Assembly (NCBI GenBank): GCA_964583685.1
Contig: CAZOVJ010000001.1
Location: forward strand, 4,033 to 68,032
DNA from: an uncultured Gammaproteobacteria bacterium
GTDB lineage: Bacteria > Patescibacteriota > Microgenomatia > UBA8517
Length of the DNA stretch: 64,000 nt
Direction of reading: 5' to 3'
Shown: piece after piece, positions 1,827 through 61,968 of the stretch
Position numbering within the stretch: position 1 is the first letter of the stretch
Layout of the letters: the number at the start of each line of letters is the position of its first letter
Position numbers and translations under genes: made by a program
The notes under the pieces: generated by a model
The model's input: only the letters and a program-made list of their open reading frames with translations
The model's database searches: none
Told to the model about the DNA's origin: nothing

Positions 1827-1939
1827 AACCCGCTGCTGTGCTACCTTTTGTTAAAGGACTTTGGAATTTTCCGGAGGGTTCAGATTTGTTTTTATCCCTC
1901 CTACTTAAAGAAACGCAAATGTTTTCCGGAAAATCCAAG

Positions 1940-2013
1940 TGGGCCCGTCAGGACTCGAACCTGAGACCTCCAAATTATCAGTTTGGCGCTCTAACCATCT
2001 GAGCTACGGGCCC
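1940..2013 (-). tRNA. tRNA-Ile (anticodon GAT)
   Basis: Revcomp reads gggcccgTAgctcagatggttagagcGccaaaCTGATAAtttggaggtctcaggTTCGAGTcctgacgggcccA. Canonical cloverleaf, T-loop TTCGAGT, anticodon loop CTGATAA, 74 nt, no encoded CCA. Confidence 0.85.
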
Positions 2014-2072
2014 TAAACAATTGCCCCAAGTAAGAATAATTTACCACAAAACAGCCTCAAAAACAACACCTC

Positions 2073-2101
2073 TTGACGGAGTTTGTTCTAGTCTATATAA
2101 T
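2073..2101 (+). promoter_or_regulatory. sigma70-type promoter for the tRNA-Ala/23S/5S operon (TTGACG-17-TATAAT)
   Basis: ttgacg (2073-2078), exact 17-nt spacer, tataat (2096-2101). Lies about 200 nt upstream of tRNA-Ala. Confidence 0.5.
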
Positions 2102-2306
2102 AATGTTTGCCTTTTGAGATACGCCTAGTCGGCGAGGGGCAAATTACTTAATGAGAAGCGCAAAATTAAATTATAAGCGAAACGAGCTCACGCGTTTGCG
2201 TGGGTAGAGAGCGCTAAATTTTTTAGGTAACCAGCCAATCTGCTGACAGGCAGGCTAGCCTGGGCTAGCGAGTCTAGGCAGACCTCAAGGGCTGGTTAAT
2301 TTTTTT

Positions 2307-2381
2307 GGGCCGATAGCTCAGCTGGATTAGAGCATCCGCCTTGCACGCGGAGGGTCGGGAGTTCGAATCTCCCTCGGTCCA
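2307..2381 (+). tRNA. tRNA-Ala (anticodon TGC)
   Basis: gggccgaTAgctcagctggattagagcAtccgcCTTGCACgcggagggtcgggagTTCGAATctccctcggtccA. G3:U70 Ala identity pair, 75 nt, no encoded CCA. Spacer-tRNA position upstream of 23S. Confidence 0.85.
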
Positions 2382-3688
2382 CAATAATTGAAAGATTGTT
2401 TTGCTCTTTGACATCTGAAGAGAAAGTCTACTTGCGCAGGCTTGCCTGCGTAGGTAGGTAGGTCGCAAATTTTATTAACGCAGACAGTGGATGACTTGGT
2501 CTTGTCCACCGAAGAAGGACGTACATGACGGCGAAACTCGTCGGGGAGGAGTCACGATCCTGTGATCCGGCGGTATCCGAATGGGGAAACCCATCCCGCT
2601 TCATAGCGGGATACCCTGTGGTAAAAATCTCGATTTATCGGGACATAGCTACAGGAGAGGGAACCTGGGGAACTGAAACATCTAAGTACCTAGAGGAAAA
2701 GAAATCAATAGAGATTCCGTTAGTAGCGGCGAGCGAAAACGGAAGAGCCTAAACCCTGTGCTTTGCACAGGAATGATGAATAGCCAATGATAAATGGCCA
2801 ATGTATGAAAAGCCTAAATGTTTTTGAGGATTGTATCTAGTACATTCCATTTAGCATTTGGCATTTATAATTTGTCATTCCCGCGCAGAGCGTGGGGGGT
2901 TGTGGGACTTCAAGATAAGAGTTATCGCGATAGCAGAATGACTTGGAATAGTCAACCAAAGAAAGTGAAAGTCTTGTAAGCGAAATCAAGGTAACCTTTA
3001 GAAGTATCCCAAGTACCACGGTGTAGATACTCTGTGGGAATCTGGGGGGACCATCCTCCAAGGCTAAATATGAGACAAGAACCGATAGCGCACTAGTACC
3101 GTGAGGGAAAGCTGAAAAGAAGGGCGAGACGCCCAGTGAAATAGAACCTGAAACTGTTTGCGGACAAGCCGAGAGAGTCCCGCACTGCGGGATGATCTCG
3201 TGCCTATTGAAGAATGAACCGGCGAGTGTCCGATGTTTGCATAGATTAACTCCGATAAATTGGAGGTAGTCGTAGGGAAACCGAGTCTGAATAGGGCGAT
3301 TAGTAAGTATTGGACGACCCGAAACCGGGCGAGCTAACCATGGGCAGGGTGAAATCCCGCGAAAGCGGGATGGAGGCCCGAACCCGTGTAGGTTGCAATC
3401 TGCTGGGATGACCTGTGGTTAGAGGTAATATGCCAATCGAGCCCGGAGATAGCTGGTTCTCCCCGAAAGGTCTATAGGGACCGTGCCCCGCAAAAACATC
3501 TTGGGGGTAGAGCACTGAATGGGCCATCGAGCGTAAGCGAGATGTTTCAATCAAACTCCGAATACCAAGATGGTACGTTGGGTAGACAGCCATATCGGGA
3601 TAAGCTGATATGACGAGAGGGAAACAACCCAGATTTTCGTCTAAGGCCTCTAAATTTACCTTAAGTTTGAAAGGAAGTCTTTTTTCGT

Positions 3689-3725
<37 letters not shown>

Positions 3726-4636
3726 TAAAGAAAGCGTAACAGCTCACTGGTCGATTATCCCGCTTAGCGGGATAGAGAAAGGGCGCCGAAAATTTATCGA
3801 GGATTAAAGGTAATGCCGAAGACAAAAATTCTCCGATTTTATCGGAGGGTGGTAGGGGAGCGCTCCGGCGACGGTGAAGGTCAAGCGGAAGCGAGGCTGG
3901 AGTCCGCCGGAGGTGAGAATGCCGGTATGAGTAGCGTACAACTCCGATGAGAATTCGGAGCGCCGAATGCCCAAGGTTTCCCCCGCTATGTTCGTCAACG
4001 GGGGGTTAGTCGGCACCTAAGGTAAGTCCCGATTTATATTGGGAGTAGTCGATGGACAAACGGTTAAAATTCCGTTACTTGTTTTGGATCGTCAACCTCG
4101 TGCTTTGCATGAGTAACTGGGGGTTGACTGGATAGGATAGCTAGAGCCAGGAGTTGAAGCTTGGTGTAAGCTGCAAAGTAGGGTCAGTTGGAAAATCCGC
4201 TGAAACGATTAATTGAGCAGTGATGCAAAATCCTAAGAGATTAGGGTGATTCTAGTGTGTTCAATCTACAAGAAAAGGCTCGCAGTGAGATCCAAAATAA
4301 GCCGTACCGCAAACCGACACAGGTGGGCTGGTAGAGAATACTAAGGCGAGCGAGAGAAGGATGCTTAAGGAACTCGGCAAACAAGCTACCCGTAACTTCG
4401 GGAGATGGGTTGCCCCGCTTAGCGGGGTCGCAGCGAAAGTTTGCTAGTCGGCTGTTTATCAAAAACACAGGTCCATGCAAAAGCGTAAGCTAAGGTATAT
4501 GGGCTGACGCCTGCCCAGTGCCGGTAAGTTAAAGGGAGGGGTTCCCCGACTTTGTCGGGATGGCTCTGAACCGAAGCTCCGGTAAACGGCAGCAATAACT
4601 ATAATTGTTCTACGGTAGCGAAGTCCCTTGTCGGGT

Positions 4637-5348
4637 AAACCAATCGGAATTTGCCCGAATATTGTGGCGACGCAATAATAGTAAACTGGCTAATATCGGT
4701 GAAAGCTAAATCTGTGCTACCATTTAATTACAGACATGCCAATACCGAGGGAACCCCCGCTTAGCGGGGGACTCCGTAACGACTGATCCGAAAGGTGAGG
4801 TCCCGATTTAATCGGGACAATACGCCAGCCCTTGTTTTGATATAATAAGCTATGGAGTTTACTTCGTATTTAACTGGGTTTGTAGATGGTGAAGGAACTT
4901 TTTCAGTTTCCTTTAACTATCGATCCAAGCTCAAAACTAATATCGAGGTAAGACCTAGTTTTTCTGTTTCTCAACACAAGAGAAATCTGAAAGTTTTAAG
5001 AGAAATTAGGGAATATTTTGGAGTAGGGGGAATCCGTTTTTCTAAGCGAGATCAAAACTACAAATATGAGGTTAGGTCCATTAAGGATCTAGTTACAAAG
5101 ATTATTCCTCATTTTGAAAAGTTTCCCCTTAGGACAAACAAACAAAAAGATTTTGAGCTTTTTGTTGATATTTGTAAGATGATATCTGCAAATTACCATT
5201 TAAATTCTTTGTATTTAGCCCGGATTATTGATAAGGCTTATAAAATGAATGAAAGTGGAAAACGCAGATACAAAAAACGCAAGCTCCTAAGGCTTATGGC
5301 AAGGTGAAGATATAGTCTAATCCATTGCGAAAGCAATCGGTAGAGTTG
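4637..5348 (+). mobile_element. group I intron in 23S at the helix-69 site (E. coli ~U1917|A1918) carrying a LAGLIDADG ORF
   Basis: Exon reads ...cttgtcgggt | intron | aagttccgacccgcacg, which rebuilds conserved GGGUAAGUUCCGACC. Exon ends in U and the intron ends in G, as expected for group I. About 712 nt. Confidence 0.75.
4852..5307 (+). CDS. LAGLIDADG homing endonuclease (single-motif, intron-encoded)
   Basis: ORF track 151 aa with motif LTGFVDGEGTF near the N-terminus. Lies wholly inside the 23S intron. Confidence 0.8.
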   Translation: MEFTSYLTGFVDGEGTFSVSFNYRSKLKTNIEVRPSFSVSQHKRNLKVLREIREYFGVGGIRFSKRDQNYKYEVRSIKDLVTKIIPHFEKFPLRTNKQKDFELFVDICKMISANYHLNSLYLARIIDKAYKMNESGKRRYKKRKLLRLMAR

Positions 5349-5979
5349 AAGTTCCGACCCGCACGAAAGGCGTCACGAACTAGCAACTGTCTTGAGCATT
5401 CACTCGGCGAAATTGCGATGGCTGTGAAGACGCGGCCTACTTGTACCAGGACGAAAAGACCCCGTGGAGCTTCACTGCAGTTTGACATTGCTTTCATACT
5501 TTTGAATTGTCAAGAATAGGAGGGAGTCCCGCTTTTGCGGGACGACAGTGTGATACCTCTCATTCAAGAGTGTGAGGCTTACTTGGGTCCGATGGAGACT
5601 CGGACAGGGAAAGTGTTAGATGGGCAGTTTTTCTGGGGCGGAACCCTGCTAAAAGGTAACGCAGGGGTACAAAGGTTGGCTTGGTCCGAATGGAAACCGG
5701 ACTGAAAGTATAAAGGTTTAAGCCAGCTTGACTGCGAGGCCGACGGGCCGAGCAGGTGCGAAAGCAGGTCTTAATGATCCTCCGATCCTCAATGGGTGAG
5801 GACGGAGCTTAACGGATAAAAGCTACCCCGGGGATAACAGAGTAGTCGCGCCCGAGAGTCCATATCGACGGCGCGGATCGCTACCTCGATGTCGGCTCAC
5901 CGCATCCTGGGGCCGGAGAAGGTCCCAAGGGTTGGTCTGTTCGCCCATTAAAGCGGTACGTGAGCTGGGTTCAGAACGT

Positions 5980-6727
5980 AAGTTACGTTGCGTTCTACAT
6001 CAGTAATGGTGTATGATGAAACCGACTAAAATCGGTGAAACCTAAGTCCGTTTTCCGAATGCGGATAAGGCAATACCGAGGGTAAGACAGAGGGTTGTTC
6101 TATGACAAAAGAAGAATTGGCTTACATTGCTGGTTTTTTAGATGGAGATGGTTGTATTATGCTTCAATTGATTTCTAGGCATGATTACAGGCTTGGGTAT
6201 CAGATAAGAGCAAGTATAGTTTTCTATCAAAAAACCAAGTACAGAAACTTTTTGGAGTGGTTAAAGAAGAAACTCAAGGACGGATATATACGGAACAGAA
6301 ACGATGGTATGAGTGAATATACCATTGTGGGTATATCTCCAGTAAGGGCGATATTAAAGCTTCTTTATCCATATTTGAGATTGAAAAAGAAACATGCAGA
6401 ACTTGCAGTTTCGGTTTTAGACCAAATGCCAAAAAGTGGTTGGCAGATGAAGCCAGAGCTTTTACTTAATTTATCTTATAAGGTAGACAAGTTTGCAAAA
6501 TTGAATTATTCAAAAAAGCGAACTAATACCTCTAAAAAAGTAAAGCAATTCTTGAAGTCACGAAACCTTCTGGATCCCGTAGAGACTGATCCGAAAGGAG
6601 AGATTCCGATTTAATCGGAATAATACGTCGGCTCCCGCTATTAGTTTTAGGGTATGGTTTTATAAACCTAAGCCCAAAAGCGGGATGAAGATATAGTCCA
6701 TGCCACACGAAAGTGGGGAATAACATG
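5980..6727 (+). mobile_element. group I intron in 23S at the I-CreI-type site (E. coli ~2593) carrying a LAGLIDADG ORF
   Basis: Exon reads ...ggttcagaacgt | intron | cgcgagacagttcgg, rebuilding AGAACGUCGUGAGACAGUUCGG. Exon ends in U, intron ends in G. Shares the 3' core block gatccgaaagg...gattccgatttaatcgg...gaagatatagtc with intron 1. Confidence 0.75.
6102..6614 (+). CDS. LAGLIDADG homing endonuclease (single-motif, intron-encoded)
   Basis: ORF track 170 aa with motif LAYIAGFLDGDGCI. Inside the second 23S intron. Confidence 0.8.
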   Translation: MTKEELAYIAGFLDGDGCIMLQLISRHDYRLGYQIRASIVFYQKTKYRNFLEWLKKKLKDGYIRNRNDGMSEYTIVGISPVRAILKLLYPYLRLKKKHAELAVSVLDQMPKSGWQMKPELLLNLSYKVDKFAKLNYSKKRTNTSKKVKQFLKSRNLLDPVETDPKGEIPI

Positions 6728-6868
6728 CGCGAGACAGTTCGGACTTTATCCGGTACAAGCGTAGAGTCTTGAGGAGAGCTGGCCTTAGTACGAGAGGACC
6801 AGGCTGGAGGAATCCCTAGTGTGCCGGTTGTCATGTCAATGGCAACGCCGGGTAGCTACATTCCTTAA

Positions 6869-6905
<37 letters not shown>

Positions 6906-7063
6906 CCAAGATAAGGACTCATCCCCGCTCAGCGGGGGAAGACCCCTGGGAGACTACCAGGTTAATCGGCAGGCGGTGGAAGTCCCGTAAGGGATTAAGC
7001 CTACCTGTGCGAATAGGTCGAAAGATTTTGCGAGCTCTTTCTCTTCAGATTCAAGGAGCAAAG

Positions 7064-7204
7064 TGCCCTGGTGATTAGAGCGGTGTGGAACTACTCTTAT
7101 CCCGTCTCGATTCGTCGAAGCGGGCTATTCCGAACAAGGCAGTAAAACGCACCAGCGCCGACGATAGTGCTTCTCGGAGTGCGAAAATAGGTCATTGCCA
7201 GGGC
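7064..7204 (+). rRNA. rrf: 5S rRNA
   Basis: gccctggtg...ccgaacaaggcagtaaaacgcaccagcgccgacgatagtg...gccagggc. Terminal helix pairs, and CGCCGAyGGUAGUG-like loop E/helix IV motif is present. About 140 nt, directly after 23S. Confidence 0.8.
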
Positions 7205-59726: not shown

Positions 59727-61007
59727 ATGAAGCATAAATTGATAACTTTAGAGAATGATTTGCGGCTAATTGTTGCCCCAATTCCCAGTTTGGCCTCAGC
59801 CACCATTACTGTTTGGGTTGGTACTGGCTCAAGGTTTGAAGCTCCAAGAACCAGTGGACTTAGTCACTTTTTGGAGCACATGGTTTTCAAAGGCAGTCAA
59901 AAGAGGCCTTCGGCCAAGCTGATTGCCCAGGCCGTTGATGCGATTGGAGGAGAGTTTAATGCTGGTACAACCAAAGAATGGACCAATTTTTATATCAAAG
60001 TTCGCAATCAAAGGCTTGGACTAGCCTTTGATGTTCTTTCCGATATGGTCCTCAACCCTCTTTTGAAAAAGGAGGATATCGAACGGGAAAAGGGAGTTAT
60101 TGTTGAGGAAATCGCCATGTGTGAGGATACTCCGGCCATGAGAATTGGCCATGTTTTTGAACAAGTAATTTTTCAGGGAACTTCTTTGGCAAGAGATATT
60201 ATTGGTACGGCCAAGACAGTCAAGGGGATGAAGAGAGTGGATTTTCAACGATATAGAAAGAGATATTATTATCCTGAGAATATTGTTCTTACTGTATCCG
60301 GAGGCATTGTTGAAAAAGATGCGTTAAAACTGGCTAAAAAGTATTTTGGGGAAATTAAGCTCGGGGCTAAATCTCAAGTAGGAGAGACAGGCTTTCAGTC
60401 GAGCCAAAAAAAGCCGAGATTTAAACTTTATCCTAAGAAAAAGGAACAGGCCCATTTTATTTTGGGATTTTTGGCTAGTCCCAGGGGTCACAGGGATAGA
60501 TATATTGAGGCTGTGCTTGCCACTATTTTGGGAGGAGGAATGAGCTCACGGCTTTTTAGCGAGATTAGAGAGAAACGGGGATTGGCTTATGCTGTTAAGA
60601 CAGGCGTGGATTCATATCGGGATACCGGTTATCTGGCCACTTATGCAGGTGTTGACCCGAAAAGGATTGAGGAAGCGGTCAAGGTTATGCTTGAAGAGCA
60701 CTCTAAAATCTCCCGCTCCGCGGGAAAAAATCAGGAGTTAAAAAAAGCGAAGGAGTATGTTAAGGGACATTTGGCTCTAGTCCTGGAAGATACCAAGAGT
60801 GTGAATGAGTTTTTTGGTATAGAAGAGCTTCTTTTAGGCAAGACCAGGACTCCGGAGCAAGTTTTTCAAGCGATTGACAAGGTGACGATTCAAGATGTGA
60901 TTCGGGTAGCCAAAAAGTTATTCGTGCCTGAAAAGCTTAATCTGACGATAATCGGACCTTACAGGGCATCTGTCCGTTTTGAGCGGCTCATTTCCAGTTT
61001 CCATTGA
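59727..61007 (+). CDS. M16-family (pitrilysin-like) zinc peptidase
   Basis: Inverted zinc motif HFLEHMVFKGS near the N-terminus. 426 aa. Contains a family-1 insert at 60705-60733. Confidence 0.8.
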   Translation: MKHKLITLENDLRLIVAPIPSLASATITVWVGTGSRFEAPRTSGLSHFLEHMVFKGSQKRPSAKLIAQAVDAIGGEFNAGTTKEWTNFYIKVRNQRLGLAFDVLSDMVLNPLLKKEDIEREKGVIVEEIAMCEDTPAMRIGHVFEQVIFQGTSLARDIIGTAKTVKGMKRVDFQRYRKRYYYPENIVLTVSGGIVEKDALKLAKKYFGEIKLGAKSQVGETGFQSSQKKPRFKLYPKKKEQAHFILGFLASPRGHRDRYIEAVLATILGGGMSSRLFSEIREKRGLAYAVKTGVDSYRDTGYLATYAGVDPKRIEEAVKVMLEEHSKISRSAGKNQELKKAKEYVKGHLALVLEDTKSVNEFFGIEELLLGKTRTPEQVFQAIDKVTIQDVIRVAKKLFVPEKLNLTIIGPYRASVRFERLISSFH

Positions 61008-61010
61008 TTA

Positions 61011-61056
61011 TTAGTCGGGGACCCGGGAGTCGAACCCGGAATCTGTCCGCAAAAAA
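61011..61056 (-). other. tRNA 3'-half-like fragment (anticodon-stem 3' arm, T-arm, acceptor 3' strand) with no adjacent 5' half
   Basis: Minus strand reads gcggac-agatt-ccgggTTCGACTcccgg-gtccccg-a. T-loop is canonical. Confidence 0.5.
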
Positions 61057-61132
61057 TGGTCGGAGCGGGCGGACTCGAACCGCCGACCTCGTCGTCCCGA
61101 ACGACGCGCGCTGCCATCTGCGCTACGCTCCG
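61057..61132 (-). tRNA. tRNA-Pro (anticodon CGG), CCA encoded
   Basis: Minus strand reads cggagcgTAgcgcagatggcagcgcGcgtcgTTCGGGAcgacgaggtcggcggTTCGAGTccgcccgctccgACCA. Perfect 7-bp acceptor, 76 nt. Confidence 0.85.
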
Positions 61133-61171
61133 ATGTTTAGGCGGACCGCTCTACCATTGAGCCAGTCCCTG
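61133..61171 (-). other. tRNA 5'-half-like fragment (acceptor 5' strand, complete D-arm, anticodon-stem 5' arm) abutting tRNA-Pro
   Basis: Minus strand reads cagggac-tg-gctc-aatggta-gagc-g-gtccg-cctaaacat. The gtccg arm is complementary to the cggac in the 61011-61056 fragment. Confidence 0.45.
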
Positions 61172-61189
61172 TAATATTTATTTTAGCAA

Positions 61190-61957
61190 ATGTTAGGCAA
61201 ATTATATATAGTCGCCACTCCAATAGGGAATTTGGCAGATATTAGTCAAAGAGCCCTGGGAATTTTGCGAAAAGTTGATTTGATTTTGGCTGAGGATACC
61301 AGGGTTGTTAAAAAACTTTTGACAAATTACAAAATAAAAAAGACTCTTACTAGCTACCATCAGCATAGTTCTATATCTAAAAAGGAGGGTATTTTAACAC
61401 ATCTTGTCAAGGGCAAAATTTTGGCTTTGGTGAGCGATGCTGGAACCCCGGGGATTTCTGATCCAGGTAATGAATTAATAGATTTCTTACTGGCCAGAGA
61501 GCCGAAGATAAGGATTATCCCGATTCCAGGAGCTTCAGCCTTGACTGCCGCCTTGTCGGTTTGCGGATTTAATATATCAAAATATATATTTCTAGGTTTT
61601 CTAGTCAAAAGAAAACGCCAGAAACTTTTTCAATGGCTGGCTGAAAGTAAGTTAACCTTTGTCTTTTTCGATTCACCAAAGCGGATTTTGAAGACACTTG
61701 AGAGTTTGATAGAGTTTTTTGGTGGCCAGAGGCGGGCCCGCCTCGACTCGCCGTCTTCGGCGAGGCGGGTCTTTGTCGGCCGAGAGATGACCAAGATGCA
61801 CGAAACTTTATATCGGGGGAGTTTGGAAGAGGTAAAGAAGCAATTGGAGCAGGAGAAAAAGATTAGAGGGGAAATAGTGGTGGTGGTGGAAGGGGGTGCC
61901 CTCAGTAGGAATCGAACCTGCATCTCCCCTTTAGGAGAGGGGTGCTCTATCCGTTGA
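61190..61957 (+). CDS. rsmI: 16S rRNA 2'-O-ribose C1402 methyltransferase RsmI
   Basis: N-terminal LYIVATPIGNLADISQRALGILRKVDLILAEDTRVVKKLL tetrapyrrole-methylase-fold signature. 3' ~60 nt overlap the antisense tRNA-Arg. Contains a family-2 insert (RRARLDSPSSARRV). Confidence 0.8.
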   Translation: MLGKLYIVATPIGNLADISQRALGILRKVDLILAEDTRVVKKLLTNYKIKKTLTSYHQHSSISKKEGILTHLVKGKILALVSDAGTPGISDPGNELIDFLLAREPKIRIIPIPGASALTAALSVCGFNISKYIFLGFLVKRKRQKLFQWLAESKLTFVFFDSPKRILKTLESLIEFFGGQRRARLDSPSSARRVFVGREMTKMHETLYRGSLEEVKKQLEQEKKIRGEIVVVVEGGALSRNRTCISPLGEGCSIR

Positions 61958-61968
61958 GCTATGAGGGC
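61896..61968 (-). tRNA. tRNA-Arg (anticodon CCT)
   Basis: Minus strand reads gccctcaTAgctcaacggatagagcAccccTCTCCTAAaggggagatgcaggTTCGATTcctactgagggcA. Perfect acceptor stem, one T-stem mismatch. Confidence 0.75.

What the first reader, a model, noticed from the sequence alone, without database searches (positions are those of the whole stretch)
61011..61175. tRNA-Pro sitting exactly between a tRNA 5' half and a complementary tRNA 3' half
Seen in sequence, minus strand, reading 5' to 3':
- 61171-61133 is a tRNA 5' half: acceptor strand, U8, perfect D-arm gctc/aatggta/gagc, and anticodon-stem arm gtccg.
- 61132-61057 is a complete tRNA-Pro(CGG) with encoded CCA.
- A TTTTTT run follows.
- 61056-61011 is a tRNA 3' half: arm cggac complementary to gtccg, a 5-nt variable loop, a canonical T-arm ccggg-TTCGACT-cccgg, and acceptor strand gtccccg. 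That strand pairs with the 5' half in 6 of 7 positions.

The two halves would together make a class-I tRNA whose anticodon loop, near position 37/38, is interrupted by about 85 nt that is itself a tRNA gene.

Inference, three alternatives:
- A nested or intron-like arrangement, with tRNA-Pro as the intervening sequence of another tRNA.
- A tRNA gene disrupted by insertion of a tRNA-Pro-carrying fragment.
- Integration-site scars.

None of these is standard for bacteria.
Basis: seen in the sequence. Interest (0 to 1): 0.65.

Follow-up and report, generated by a model that had tools for sequence, protein, structure and literature searches.

The report
tRNA-Pro gene nested inside tRNA relic
A working proline tRNA gene sits exactly where the anticodon loop of a second, proline-type tRNA gene should be; the arrangement is real but seen in only one strain of an uncultured Patescibacteria bacterium, and it is most likely a recently broken gene, not a new kind of intron.

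Summary
On the minus strand, 61171-61015 reads: 30 nt of tRNA 5' body, a 9-nt linker, a complete tRNA-Pro(CGG)+CCA, TTTTTTG, then 35 nt of matching tRNA 3' body.

- **Structure:** the lowest-energy fold is a cloverleaf inside a cloverleaf.
- **Chance:** joining the flanks gives a tRNA call here, but for none of 88 other tRNAs and none of 2000 shuffles.
- **Artefact:** three independent assemblies reproduce the locus exactly.
- **Conservation:** none. All 17 syntenic loci from relatives (peptidase 35-66% identical) carry one plain tRNA-Pro(CGG).
- **Outer gene:** the body is proline-type (C1-G72, A73; best matches are relatives' tRNA-Pro). Its whole anticodon loop is gone, and no excision restores a loop with U33 and a purine at 37.
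- **Intron signatures:** no group I core and no bulge-helix-bulge motif. No integrase gene nearby.

Best reading: a strain-specific rearrangement replaced the anticodon loop of one tRNA-Pro gene with a second complete tRNA-Pro(CGG) gene. Only the inner gene works, and the outer halves are now its leader and trailer. Which gene was resident first is unresolved. This is a genuine curiosity and a mild new variant of disrupted tRNA genes. Interest is moderate to low.

The parts
61180..61189 (-). Putative extended -10 promoter TTGCTAAAAT (TG at 61188-61187, -10 hexamer 61185-61180). It abuts the rsmI start codon (CAT on this strand, 61192-61190) and lies 8 nt upstream of the outer tRNA's C1.
   Evidence: The same CAT-TTG(A/G)TATAAT block precedes the plain tRNA-Pro(CGG) in L084, L085, L088, L096, L097 and L099. 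The motif is not enriched in the window (4 found, 2.6 expected), and the generic promoter scan did not call it. This is therefore an inference from positional conservation only.
61142..61171 (-). Outer tRNA 5' body: acceptor 5' strand, U8 and G9, D-arm, G26, and the 5' strand of the anticodon stem. It now serves as the 5' leader of the inner tRNA.
   Evidence: Read from the sequence. It pairs with the 3' body in the lowest-energy fold. Joined constructs are called as tRNA. The D-arm TGGCTCAATGGTAGAGCG is identical to that of the L005 tRNA-Pro.
61133..61141 (-). 9-nt linker CCTAAACAT between the outer 5' body and the inner tRNA. It is the immediate leader that RNase P would remove.
   Evidence: Read from the sequence. 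It contains no usable anticodon-loop remnant. The 7-mer CCTAAAC also occurs in the anticodon loop and stem of 5 of 12 tRNA-Arg(CCT) genes from relatives, but a match of that length is expected by chance.
61057..61132 (-). Inner gene: a complete, canonical tRNA-Pro(CGG) with encoded CCA. It is the functional product of the locus.
   Evidence: ARAGORN. Rfam RF00005 at 62.2 bits, E = 4e-11. It is orthologous in type and position to the tRNA-Pro(CGG) of 17 related loci. It is the only CCA-encoding tRNA among the five in the window.
61050..61056 (-). Trailer TTTTTTG directly after the CCA. It may act as a transcription stop, or may simply be a linker.
   Evidence: Read from the sequence. In the fold, UUU pairs with the AAA of the linker. 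The pattern scan calls no canonical terminator here.
61015..61049 (-). Outer tRNA 3' body: 3' strand of the anticodon stem, variable loop AGATT, T-arm, acceptor 3' strand, and discriminator A73, followed by CTAA (no CCA).
   Evidence: Read from the sequence. It holds the only orphan T-arm in the window. Its 3' end (A73, then C, then no CCA) follows the pattern of the other four tRNAs in the window.
59727..61007 (+). Context: M16 (insulinase-family) peptidase gene. Its stop codon lies 7 nt from the outer tRNA's 3' end. It served as the synteny anchor.
   Evidence: ORF. Homologues carry Pfam PF00675 and PF05193. The C-terminus aligns without gaps to homologues.
61190..61957 (+). Context: rsmI-like methyltransferase gene, divergent from the tRNA unit. 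The block tRNA-Pro(CGG) / rsmI / tRNA-Arg(CCT) is conserved in relatives.
   Evidence: Pfam TP_methylase, E = 1e-26. Synteny is seen in L084, L085, L096 and L097.

Best explanation
The locus holds one functional gene, tRNA-Pro(CGG) at 61132-61057. It is embedded in the remains of a second, proline-type tRNA gene whose 7-nt anticodon loop was replaced by a 92-nt segment (9-nt leader, tRNA-Pro, TTTTTTG).

**Proposed mechanism (inferred):**
1. Transcription starts at the extended -10 box next to the rsmI start codon.
2. The 39 nt upstream of the inner tRNA (outer 5' body plus linker) are an unusually structured 5' leader, which RNase P removes.
3. The CCA end is encoded.
4. The U-run and the outer 3' body are trailer.
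5. The outer halves may still pair with each other in the precursor, but they cannot yield a decoding tRNA because no anticodon loop exists.

The arrangement arose by a single, evolutionarily recent rearrangement in this strain's lineage. That could be an insertion, or break repair that copied in a tRNA-Pro gene. The inner copy makes the loss of the outer copy harmless.

**Shown:** the anatomy, its reproducibility across assemblies, its absence from relatives, the proline-type outer body, and the lack of any restorable loop.

**Inferred:** the promoter, the processing steps, the direction of the event (outer resident, inner newcomer, which I put at roughly 60:40), and the molecular cause of the event.
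For: - **Anatomy and significance:**
- **Reproducibility:** the locus is identical in three independent assemblies.
- **Strain-specific:** 17 syntenic loci from relatives carry a single plain tRNA-Pro(CGG) with unrelated flanks. Flank-joining gives 0 tRNA calls there.
- **The outer cannot be restored:** all 13 possible 7-nt loops lack U33 or a purine at 37.
- **The outer is proline-type:** it has C1-G72 and A73. Its three best matches among 85 distinct tRNAs are tRNA-Pro(CGG) genes of relatives. Excluding the anticodon arm, its body averages 36 of 55 matches to Pro(CGG) against 28 of 55 to Arg(CCT).
- **Early decay:** one non-pairing position (A2.C71) sits where relatives have G2-C71.
- **Outer as the resident gene:**
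  - It occupies the slot 8 nt after the conserved CAT-TTGnTAwAAT block, as the plain tRNA-Pro does 7-9 nt after the -10 box in L088 and L086.
  - Its 3' end follows the genome's no-CCA pattern, whereas the inner is the only CCA-encoding tRNA of five in the window.
  - One insertion is more parsimonious than two.
- **No alternative signature:** no group I, group II or other Rfam family, no bulge-helix-bulge motif, no mobile-element genes nearby.
Against: - The relic is almost pristine: 21 of 22 stem pairs and all conserved tertiary nucleotides are intact. With only one strain available, I cannot tell 'very recent' from 'maintained by selection'.
- A simple insertion should leave the old loop bases at the junctions, and none are recognisable. 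The event was therefore a replacement or something more complex.
- The inner gene is more similar than the outer to the tRNA-Pro(CGG) of most near relatives (52/66 against 42/65 versus L084). This fits the inner being the vertical orthologue and leaves the direction of the event open.
- The promoter-to-tRNA distance in relatives ranges from 7 to 39 nt, so the promoter-slot argument is not decisive. The motif is also not enriched in the window.
- No pre-insertion allele or intact copy of the outer tRNA was found. The metagenome collection scanned did not return even this strain's own JGI contigs, so that absence is weak evidence.
- There are no expression data.
Confidence: 0.7

Rival explanations
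1. Functional nesting. The inner tRNA acts as an 'intron' cut out by RNase P and 3'-end processing. The two outer halves are then ligated, or work as a nicked, base-paired split tRNA or tRNA-like RNA.
For: The outer cloverleaf is almost perfect and is predicted to form around the inner one. RNase P and RNase Z cuts would leave 3'-OH and 5'-phosphate ends that an ATP-dependent RNA ligase could in principle join (established enzymology, not tested here). Patescibacteria do carry many interrupted tRNA genes (PMC13011429).
Against: No excision gives a 7-nt loop with U33 and a purine at 37. Direct joining after RNase P and 3'-end processing would give a 16-nt loop. There is no conservation in 17 related loci. 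ARAGORN's intron mode is silent at default stringency. Bacterial ProRS needs G35 and G36 (established knowledge), and these are absent. The known Patescibacteria tRNA introns are group I ribozymes (PMC13011429), and no such core is present.
Confidence: 0.07
2. Scaffold or processing aid. The outer halves are kept because the surrounding tRNA-like fold stabilises the precursor, or recruits RNase P and RNase Z. This would be a natural counterpart of engineered 'tRNA scaffolds', with no decoding role.
For: The double cloverleaf is the lowest-energy fold, with the inner acceptor stem stacked on the outer anticodon stem. The relic is nearly intact.
Against: Seventeen related loci express the same tRNA type without any such scaffold. 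Only a single strain has it, and the A2.C71 mismatch weakens the outer acceptor stem. The fold's z-score against shuffles is only -1.9.
Confidence: 0.05
3. Integration or recombination scar. A site-specific recombinase, or a homing-endonuclease break, targeted the anticodon loop of the outer tRNA. The element was later lost, leaving only a tRNA-Pro gene it carried or a copied-in patch.
For: Anticodon loops are classic integrase targets (established knowledge). This genome does carry homing endonucleases: two LAGLIDADG ORFs in and after the 23S rRNA gene. A composite short match to the outer tRNA lies 40 nt downstream at 60976-60959 and occurred in 0 of 5000 shuffles, which could hint at template switching.
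Against: There is no integrase, no att-type direct repeat of a tRNA 3' end, and no island. The insert is 92 nt and the neighbours are housekeeping genes. The downstream match lies in ungapped, conserved peptidase coding sequence, and the test was defined after seeing the data. This rival concerns only the origin of the break and is compatible with the best explanation's present-day mechanism.
Confidence: 0.1
4. Assembly or chimera artefact.
For: The source is a metagenome-assembled genome, and tRNA genes are repeat-like.
Against: The locus and 4.6-5.3 kb of flanking sequence are identical in three independent assemblies from different samples and pipelines.
Confidence: 0.01

Closest known systems
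Group I intron-containing tRNA genes of Patescibacteria and Cyanobacteria (PMC13011429; PMC4033280)
   Same: A bacterial (CPR) tRNA gene interrupted within the anticodon-loop region, so that standard tRNA finders miss the outer gene.
   Different: The intervening sequence is 92 nt and is itself a tRNA. It has no group I core (no Rfam hit). It has no U/G splice boundaries that would restore the anticodon. It is not conserved among relatives.
Archaeal intron-containing, split and permuted tRNA genes (bulge-helix-bulge dependent; PMC4033280, PMC3218864)
   Same: Complementary 5' and 3' tRNA halves separated in the anticodon-loop region. The locus resembles proposed intermediates in the origin of split tRNA genes by insertion at the anticodon loop.
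   Different: The halves are in cis and only 92 nt apart, in a bacterium. The junctions form 2x2 and 2x4 internal loops around a 3-bp helix, not a bulge-helix-bulge motif. No anticodon can be recovered.
tRNA gene fragments at integration sites of phages and genomic islands
   Same: Partial tRNA sequence lying next to an intact tRNA gene.
   Different: Integration sites give a duplicated 3' segment flanking a kilobase-scale element with an integrase. Here there are two complementary halves of one gene, a 92-nt insert, and no recombinase.
Ordinary tRNA pseudogenes or disrupted tRNA genes
   Same: A non-decoding tRNA-derived sequence, strain-specific, with one stem mismatch.
   Different: The disrupting DNA is precisely one complete tRNA gene of the same amino-acid family, placed exactly between the anticodon-stem strands, so the transcript is predicted to fold as a cloverleaf within a cloverleaf. 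I found no description of this in the literature searched.
Engineered tRNA scaffolds and polycistronic tRNA arrays (my own knowledge, not checked here)
   Same: An RNA of interest placed in the anticodon stem of a tRNA body and released by RNase P and RNase Z.
   Different: Those are synthetic designs. Nothing here shows that the natural arrangement is selected for that purpose.

Membership tests
tRNA gene with self-splicing group I intron | The intervening sequence contains a group I catalytic core (Rfam Intron_gpI; typically 200 nt or more). | tested here: not met
   No Intron_gpI match at gathering threshold over the window, nor at E<=10 over 60900-61300. The insert is 92 nt, 76 of which are a tRNA.
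tRNA gene with self-splicing group I intron | [quoted passage not shown] | tested here: not met
   A U...G pair of boundaries exists (CCU|...G|CGGAC) but would leave a 3-nt loop. None of the 13 possible 7-nt loops has both U33 and a purine at 37.
tRNA gene with self-splicing group I intron | The same interrupted gene is found in related genomes. | tested here: not met
   Seventeen syntenic loci from relatives have an uninterrupted tRNA-Pro(CGG) and no outer halves.
Bulge-helix-bulge intron / split tRNA (archaeal-eukaryal type) | Exon-intron junctions lie in two 3-nt bulges separated by a 4-bp helix. | tested here: not met
   The lowest-energy and centroid folds put the junctions in a 2x2 and a 2x4 internal loop around a 3-bp AAA/UUU helix.
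Bulge-helix-bulge intron / split tRNA (archaeal-eukaryal type) | The genome encodes an EndA-type splicing endonuclease and a matching ligase. | not testable with these tools
   Only 64 kb of the genome is available. Bacteria are not known to encode EndA (established knowledge).
Integrase att-site scar in a tRNA gene | A direct repeat of the tRNA 3' segment flanks an inserted element. | tested here: not met
   The two pieces are complementary halves of one tRNA, not duplicates. The only related repeat is an 11/12 match of 12 nt inside the peptidase coding sequence.
Integrase att-site scar in a tRNA gene | An integrase or recombinase gene, or other element cargo, lies adjacent. | tested here: not met
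   The neighbours are sigma-70, ArgRS, M16 peptidase, an RsmI-like methyltransferase, a PEGA-domain protein and MreB.
Canonical elongator tRNA (outer gene, halves joined) | Cloverleaf with four stems and the conserved nucleotides U8, A14, G18 G19, T54 T55 C56, A58 and G53-C61. | tested here: met
   All are present in the sequence. ARAGORN accepts the joined constructs at default stringency. The fold confirms the stems.
Canonical elongator tRNA (outer gene, halves joined) | A 7-nt anticodon loop with U33 and a purine at 37. | tested here: not met
   There is no loop in the DNA, and none can be produced by any single excision.
Bacterial tRNA-Pro (outer gene body) | C1-G72 pair and A73 discriminator (bacterial proline identity elements; established knowledge). 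| tested here: met
   C1 is at 61171, G72 at 61016 and A73 at 61015. The same holds in the tRNA-Pro genes of relatives.
Bacterial tRNA-Pro (outer gene body) | Closest sequence relatives are tRNA-Pro genes. | tested here: met
   The top three of 85 distinct tRNAs are Pro(CGG) from L009, L005 and L004. By arms, Pro(CGG) averages 36/55 matches against 28/55 for Arg(CCT). The reference set is enriched in Pro and Arg, so this is supportive and not exhaustive.
Bacterial tRNA-Pro (outer gene body) | Anticodon NGG (G35 and G36). | tested here: not met
   The anticodon loop is absent. The isoacceptor of the outer gene cannot be determined.
Bacterial tRNA-Pro(CGG) (inner gene) | Scores above the tRNA covariance-model threshold, with anticodon CGG, C1-G72 and A73. 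| tested here: met
   Rfam 62.2 bits against a gathering score of 29. ARAGORN calls Pro(cgg). The 3' end is read.

The most novel reading that the evidence does not exclude
The nested arrangement is functional. A bacterial precursor folds as a cloverleaf within a cloverleaf. RNase P and 3'-end processing release tRNA-Pro(CGG) and at the same time generate a base-paired pair of tRNA halves. That pair would be the first bacterial cis-encoded 'split tRNA-like' RNA. It would then be trimmed and ligated, or used as a non-decoding tRNA-like molecule, for example as a decoy, a regulator or a processing scaffold.
Probability: 0.07. Interest if true: 0.8.

Novelty: new variant of a known kind. Interest (0 to 1): 0.35.

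Why it matters
If the best explanation holds, the locus captures a rarely seen step in tRNA gene turnover. One tRNA gene is knocked out precisely at its anticodon loop by a second gene of the same amino-acid family, which takes over. The result is a cis-encoded 5' half and 3' half of the kind invoked in models for the origin of split tRNA genes.

It is also a practical warning for annotation. Standard tools report only the inner gene. Intron-aware or relaxed-stringency modes can produce spurious calls here, such as the false 'tRNA-Gly' and 'tRNA-Lys'.

Because the precursor should fold as a double cloverleaf, it is a ready-made natural substrate for asking how RNase P and RNase Z choose among nested tRNA structures.

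If the unlikely functional reading were true, it would add a new class of interrupted tRNA gene to bacteria.

Tried and rejected
- **ARAGORN intron mode** (-i, -i0,200). No outer tRNA at default stringency. At relaxed thresholds it gave only spurious overlapping calls.
- **Permissive Rfam scan of the locus.** Only the inner tRNA plus sub-threshold noise: mascRNA, Vault, permuted tmRNA and Tymo tRNA-like, all driven by the tRNA arms.
- **Intact outer tRNA with any 7-nt loop, in metagenome contigs.** 0 hits.
- **5' half as a pattern, in metagenome contigs.** Three unrelated tRNAs sharing the D-arm. The collection did not return this strain's own JGI contigs, so these negatives are weak.
- **Viral contigs and phage genomes.** The 3' half gave 0 hits. 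The inner anticodon arm hit phage tRNA arrays only through generic tRNA-Pro conservation. The whole unit matched phages only over the inner tRNA, at about 80% identity. No donor was identified.
- **Outer tRNA derived from the neighbouring tRNA-Arg(CCT).** This was prompted by CCTAAAC in the linker and a mirror-image acceptor stem. Rejected: the body is clearly closer to Pro than to Arg, and a 7-mer match is expected by chance given the number of tRNAs compared.
- **Downstream composite match (60976-60959) as a third decayed tRNA copy.** Rejected as a gene remnant because it lies in ungapped, conserved peptidase coding sequence. Its rarity in shuffles is left unexplained.
- **Promoter motif enrichment.** Not significant.
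- **Generic promoter and terminator scan.** It called nothing relevant.
- **Target-site duplication or terminal inverted repeats around the insert.** None found.
- **Five further near relatives**, sampled to find a pre-insertion allele. Three had plain tRNA-Pro, and two loci had no tRNA in reach.

Full report
**What is there**

On the minus strand the sequence reads, 5' to 3':
- CAGGGAC-TG-GCTC-AATGGTA-GAGC-G-GTCCG (61171-61142): a tRNA acceptor strand, U8 and G9, a perfect D-arm, G26, and the 5' strand of an anticodon stem.
- CCTAAACAT (61141-61133).
- A complete tRNA-Pro(CGG) with encoded CCA (61132-61057).
- TTTTTTG (61056-61050).
- CGGAC-AGATT-CCGGG-TTCGACT-CCCGG-GTCCCCG-A (61049-61015): the matching 3' strand of the anticodon stem, a 5-nt variable loop, a canonical T-arm, an acceptor 3' strand that pairs in 6 of 7 positions (A2.C71 is the exception), and a discriminator A73.

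ARAGORN and Rfam both call the inner gene (62.2 bits against a threshold of 29). Neither calls the outer one.

**Is it more than chance, and is it real DNA?**

- The lowest-energy and centroid folds of the 161 nt are a cloverleaf nested in the anticodon stem of a second cloverleaf.
- Any join of the two halves is accepted by ARAGORN as a tRNA at default stringency.
- With the inner tRNA deleted and the junction varied by 0-11 nt on each side, 66 of 144 constructs give a tRNA spanning the junction.
- The same procedure gives none for 88 other tRNAs in the window and in all fetched loci, and none for 2000 shuffled flanks.
- The T-arm of the 3' half is the only orphan T-arm in the window.
- The locus, with 4.6-5.3 kb around it, is identical in three independent assemblies from different samples. 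An assembly artefact is effectively excluded.
- Those three copies are the same strain, so they say nothing about conservation.

**Organism and context**

The window comes from a Patescibacteria (CPR) bacterium of the Microgenomates/Woesebacteria type (record titles; names).

The locus fills the whole 182-nt gap between an M16 peptidase gene and a divergent rsmI-like methyltransferase gene. A tRNA-Arg(CCT) gene follows rsmI.

The block tRNA-Pro(CGG) / rsmI / tRNA-Arg(CCT) is conserved in relatives.

**Comparative test**

I inspected 17 syntenic loci from relatives whose peptidase is 35-66% identical. That is as close as the databases offer: the best non-self hit is 66%.

Every one of them has a single, plain tRNA-Pro(CGG) with unrelated, non-tRNA flanks.

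No intact copy of the outer tRNA was found in the metagenome or viral collections. Those collections did not even return this strain's own contigs, so that absence carries little weight.

The nested arrangement is therefore lineage-specific.

**What the outer gene is**

- It has the bacterial proline identity set in the acceptor: C1-G72 and A73 (established knowledge).
- Its D-arm is identical to that of the L005 tRNA-Pro.
- Its three best matches among 85 distinct tRNAs are tRNA-Pro(CGG) genes of relatives.
- Excluding the anticodon arm, it averages 36 of 55 matches to Pro(CGG) and 28 of 55 to Arg(CCT).
- Relative to the clade consensus CGGGGTG/CACCCCG, it carries compensated changes at pairs 6-67 and 7-66, plus one uncompensated change (G2 to A).

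It looks like a genuine, diverged tRNA-Pro gene that has just begun to decay.

It is not a recent copy of the inner gene: the two share only 39 of 65 positions.

**Why it is not an intron**

- Here the insert is 92 nt, and 76 of them are a tRNA.
- No group I or group II model matches, even at E<=10.
- Of the 13 possible 7-nt loops that any single excision could leave, none has both U33 and a purine at 37.
- The junctions do not form a bulge-helix-bulge motif.
- ARAGORN's intron mode finds nothing at default stringency, and only spurious overlapping genes when relaxed.
- The anticodon loop has been replaced, not split.

**How it most likely works now (inferred)**

- An extended -10 box, TTGCTAAAAT (61189-61180), abuts the rsmI start codon. 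The same CAT-TTG(A/G)TATAAT block precedes the plain tRNA-Pro in six related loci.
- Transcription from there would give a precursor whose first 39 nt are the outer 5' body plus the linker.
- RNase P would cut at 61133/61132.
- The CCA end is encoded, and the U-run and the outer 3' body are trailer.
- The two relic halves may remain paired, but they have no anticodon loop and lack G35 and G36, so a decoding role is implausible.
- Caveat: the promoter motif is not statistically enriched in the window, and the generic promoter scan missed it. That step rests on positional conservation only.

**Which gene came first**

For the outer gene being resident and the inner being the newcomer:
- One replacement event is enough.
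- The outer starts 8 nt after the -10 box, as the plain tRNA-Pro does 7-9 nt after it in L088 and L086.
- The outer's 3' end follows the pattern of the other four tRNAs in the window (A73, then C, then no CCA). The inner is the only CCA-encoding tRNA here, and only 2 of 25 tRNAs in relatives encode CCA.

Against:
- The inner is more similar to the tRNA-Pro of most near relatives (52/66 against 42/65 versus L084).
- Leader lengths in relatives vary from 7 to 39 nt.

I put this at roughly 60:40 in favour of the outer being resident.

The molecular cause could be break repair with a copied-in patch, illegitimate recombination, or a lost mobile element. It is unknown. There are no target-site duplications, terminal repeats or recombinase genes nearby.

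**Loose ends**

- On the tRNA strand, 60976-60959 reads CGGACAGATGCC+CCCTGTAA. The first part is an 11/12 copy of the outer anticodon-stem and variable-loop strand. The second part is the exact complement of TTACAGGG at the outer 5' end. This composite occurred in 0 of 5000 dinucleotide shuffles. However, I defined the test after seeing the match, and the segment encodes a gap-free, conserved part of the peptidase C-terminus. I leave it unexplained. It could hint at template switching during the rearrangement.
- The linker's CCTAAAC equals the anticodon plus following bases of several relatives' tRNA-Arg(CCT) genes, but a 7-mer match is expected by chance given the comparisons made.

**Comparison with what is known**

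The catalogue of disrupted tRNA gene types covers group I intron-containing, single- and multiple-intron, split, tri-split and permuted genes (PMC4033280). It has no class in which the intervening sequence is itself a tRNA.

Text searches for nested tRNA arrangements found only a tRNA-Sec nested in a protein gene.

The closest mechanistic analogy is an ordinary insertion-disrupted tRNA pseudogene. Structurally, the locus resembles proposed intermediates on the way to split tRNA genes.

**Verdict**

- It is strain-specific, with no evidence of function for the outer gene.
- It is a new variant of a known kind (a disrupted tRNA gene), of moderate to low interest (0.35).
- The functional nested-tRNA reading is not excluded, but I give it about 7%.

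Noticed in passing
window 2464-7203: The 23S rRNA gene (2464-6059) is about 670 nt longer than the Rfam model. It contains an ORF (4852-5307) with a strong LAGLIDADG_1 match (E = 3e-29), preceded by TTGATATAAT at 4837. A second LAGLIDADG ORF (6102-6614, E = 4e-12) lies in the 1-kb gap between the 23S 3' end and the 5S gene (7067-7203). No Rfam group I intron was called there at gathering threshold.
   Followed up: partly
window 1939-2382: tRNA-Ile(GAT) lies on the strand opposite to tRNA-Ala(TGC)-23S-5S. No 16S rRNA gene lies upstream within the window. This is an unusual rRNA operon layout.
   Followed up: no
window 61895-61968: The rsmI-like ORF (61190-61957, 255 aa, against 221-227 aa in relatives) runs about 63 nt antisense into the tRNA-Arg(CCT) gene. 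Its stop codon seems to have shifted compared with relatives, where rsmI ends about 10 nt before the tRNA.
   Followed up: no
window 60959-60976 (and 61001-61007): Inside the peptidase C-terminal codons there is a composite match to the outer tRNA: an 11/12 copy of CGGACAGATTCC, followed by the exact complement of TTACAGGG at the outer 5' end. TCAATGG, which equals part of the outer D-arm (last two D-stem bases plus the start of the D-loop), spans the peptidase stop codon. The composite occurred in 0 of 5000 shuffles, but the test was post hoc and the segment is conserved, ungapped coding sequence.
   Followed up: partly
L092 2683-3361 (Ga0213870_1000034): A tandem 310-nt repeat. Each unit is the 5' two-thirds of a tRNA (through the variable loop) followed by a GIY-YIG-like ORF (MLPTVYILKCSNNRYYVGSTNNLKRRFEEH...). 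The array ends in a complete tRNA-Val(TAC). It looks like a free-standing homing-endonuclease gene duplicating part of a tRNA gene.
   Followed up: no
L094 about 4140-4200 and L095 about 4030-4090 (IMG/VR contigs): Truncated tRNA-Pro(CGG) copies that break off in the T-arm. In L094 one lies beside an intact tRNA-Pro(CGG) within a 29-gene phage tRNA array. In L095 ARAGORN finds no intact tRNA gene. They may be att-site remnants or decayed duplicates.
   Followed up: no
L084, L085, L096, L097 and L089, between the peptidase and rsmI: The interval between the peptidase and the tRNA-Pro/rsmI block is a hotspot for small toxin-antitoxin cassettes in relatives: ParE/Phd, PIN/RHH and DUF433/DUF5615. 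The window has none. The neighbourhood is therefore recombinationally active in this clade.
   Followed up: no
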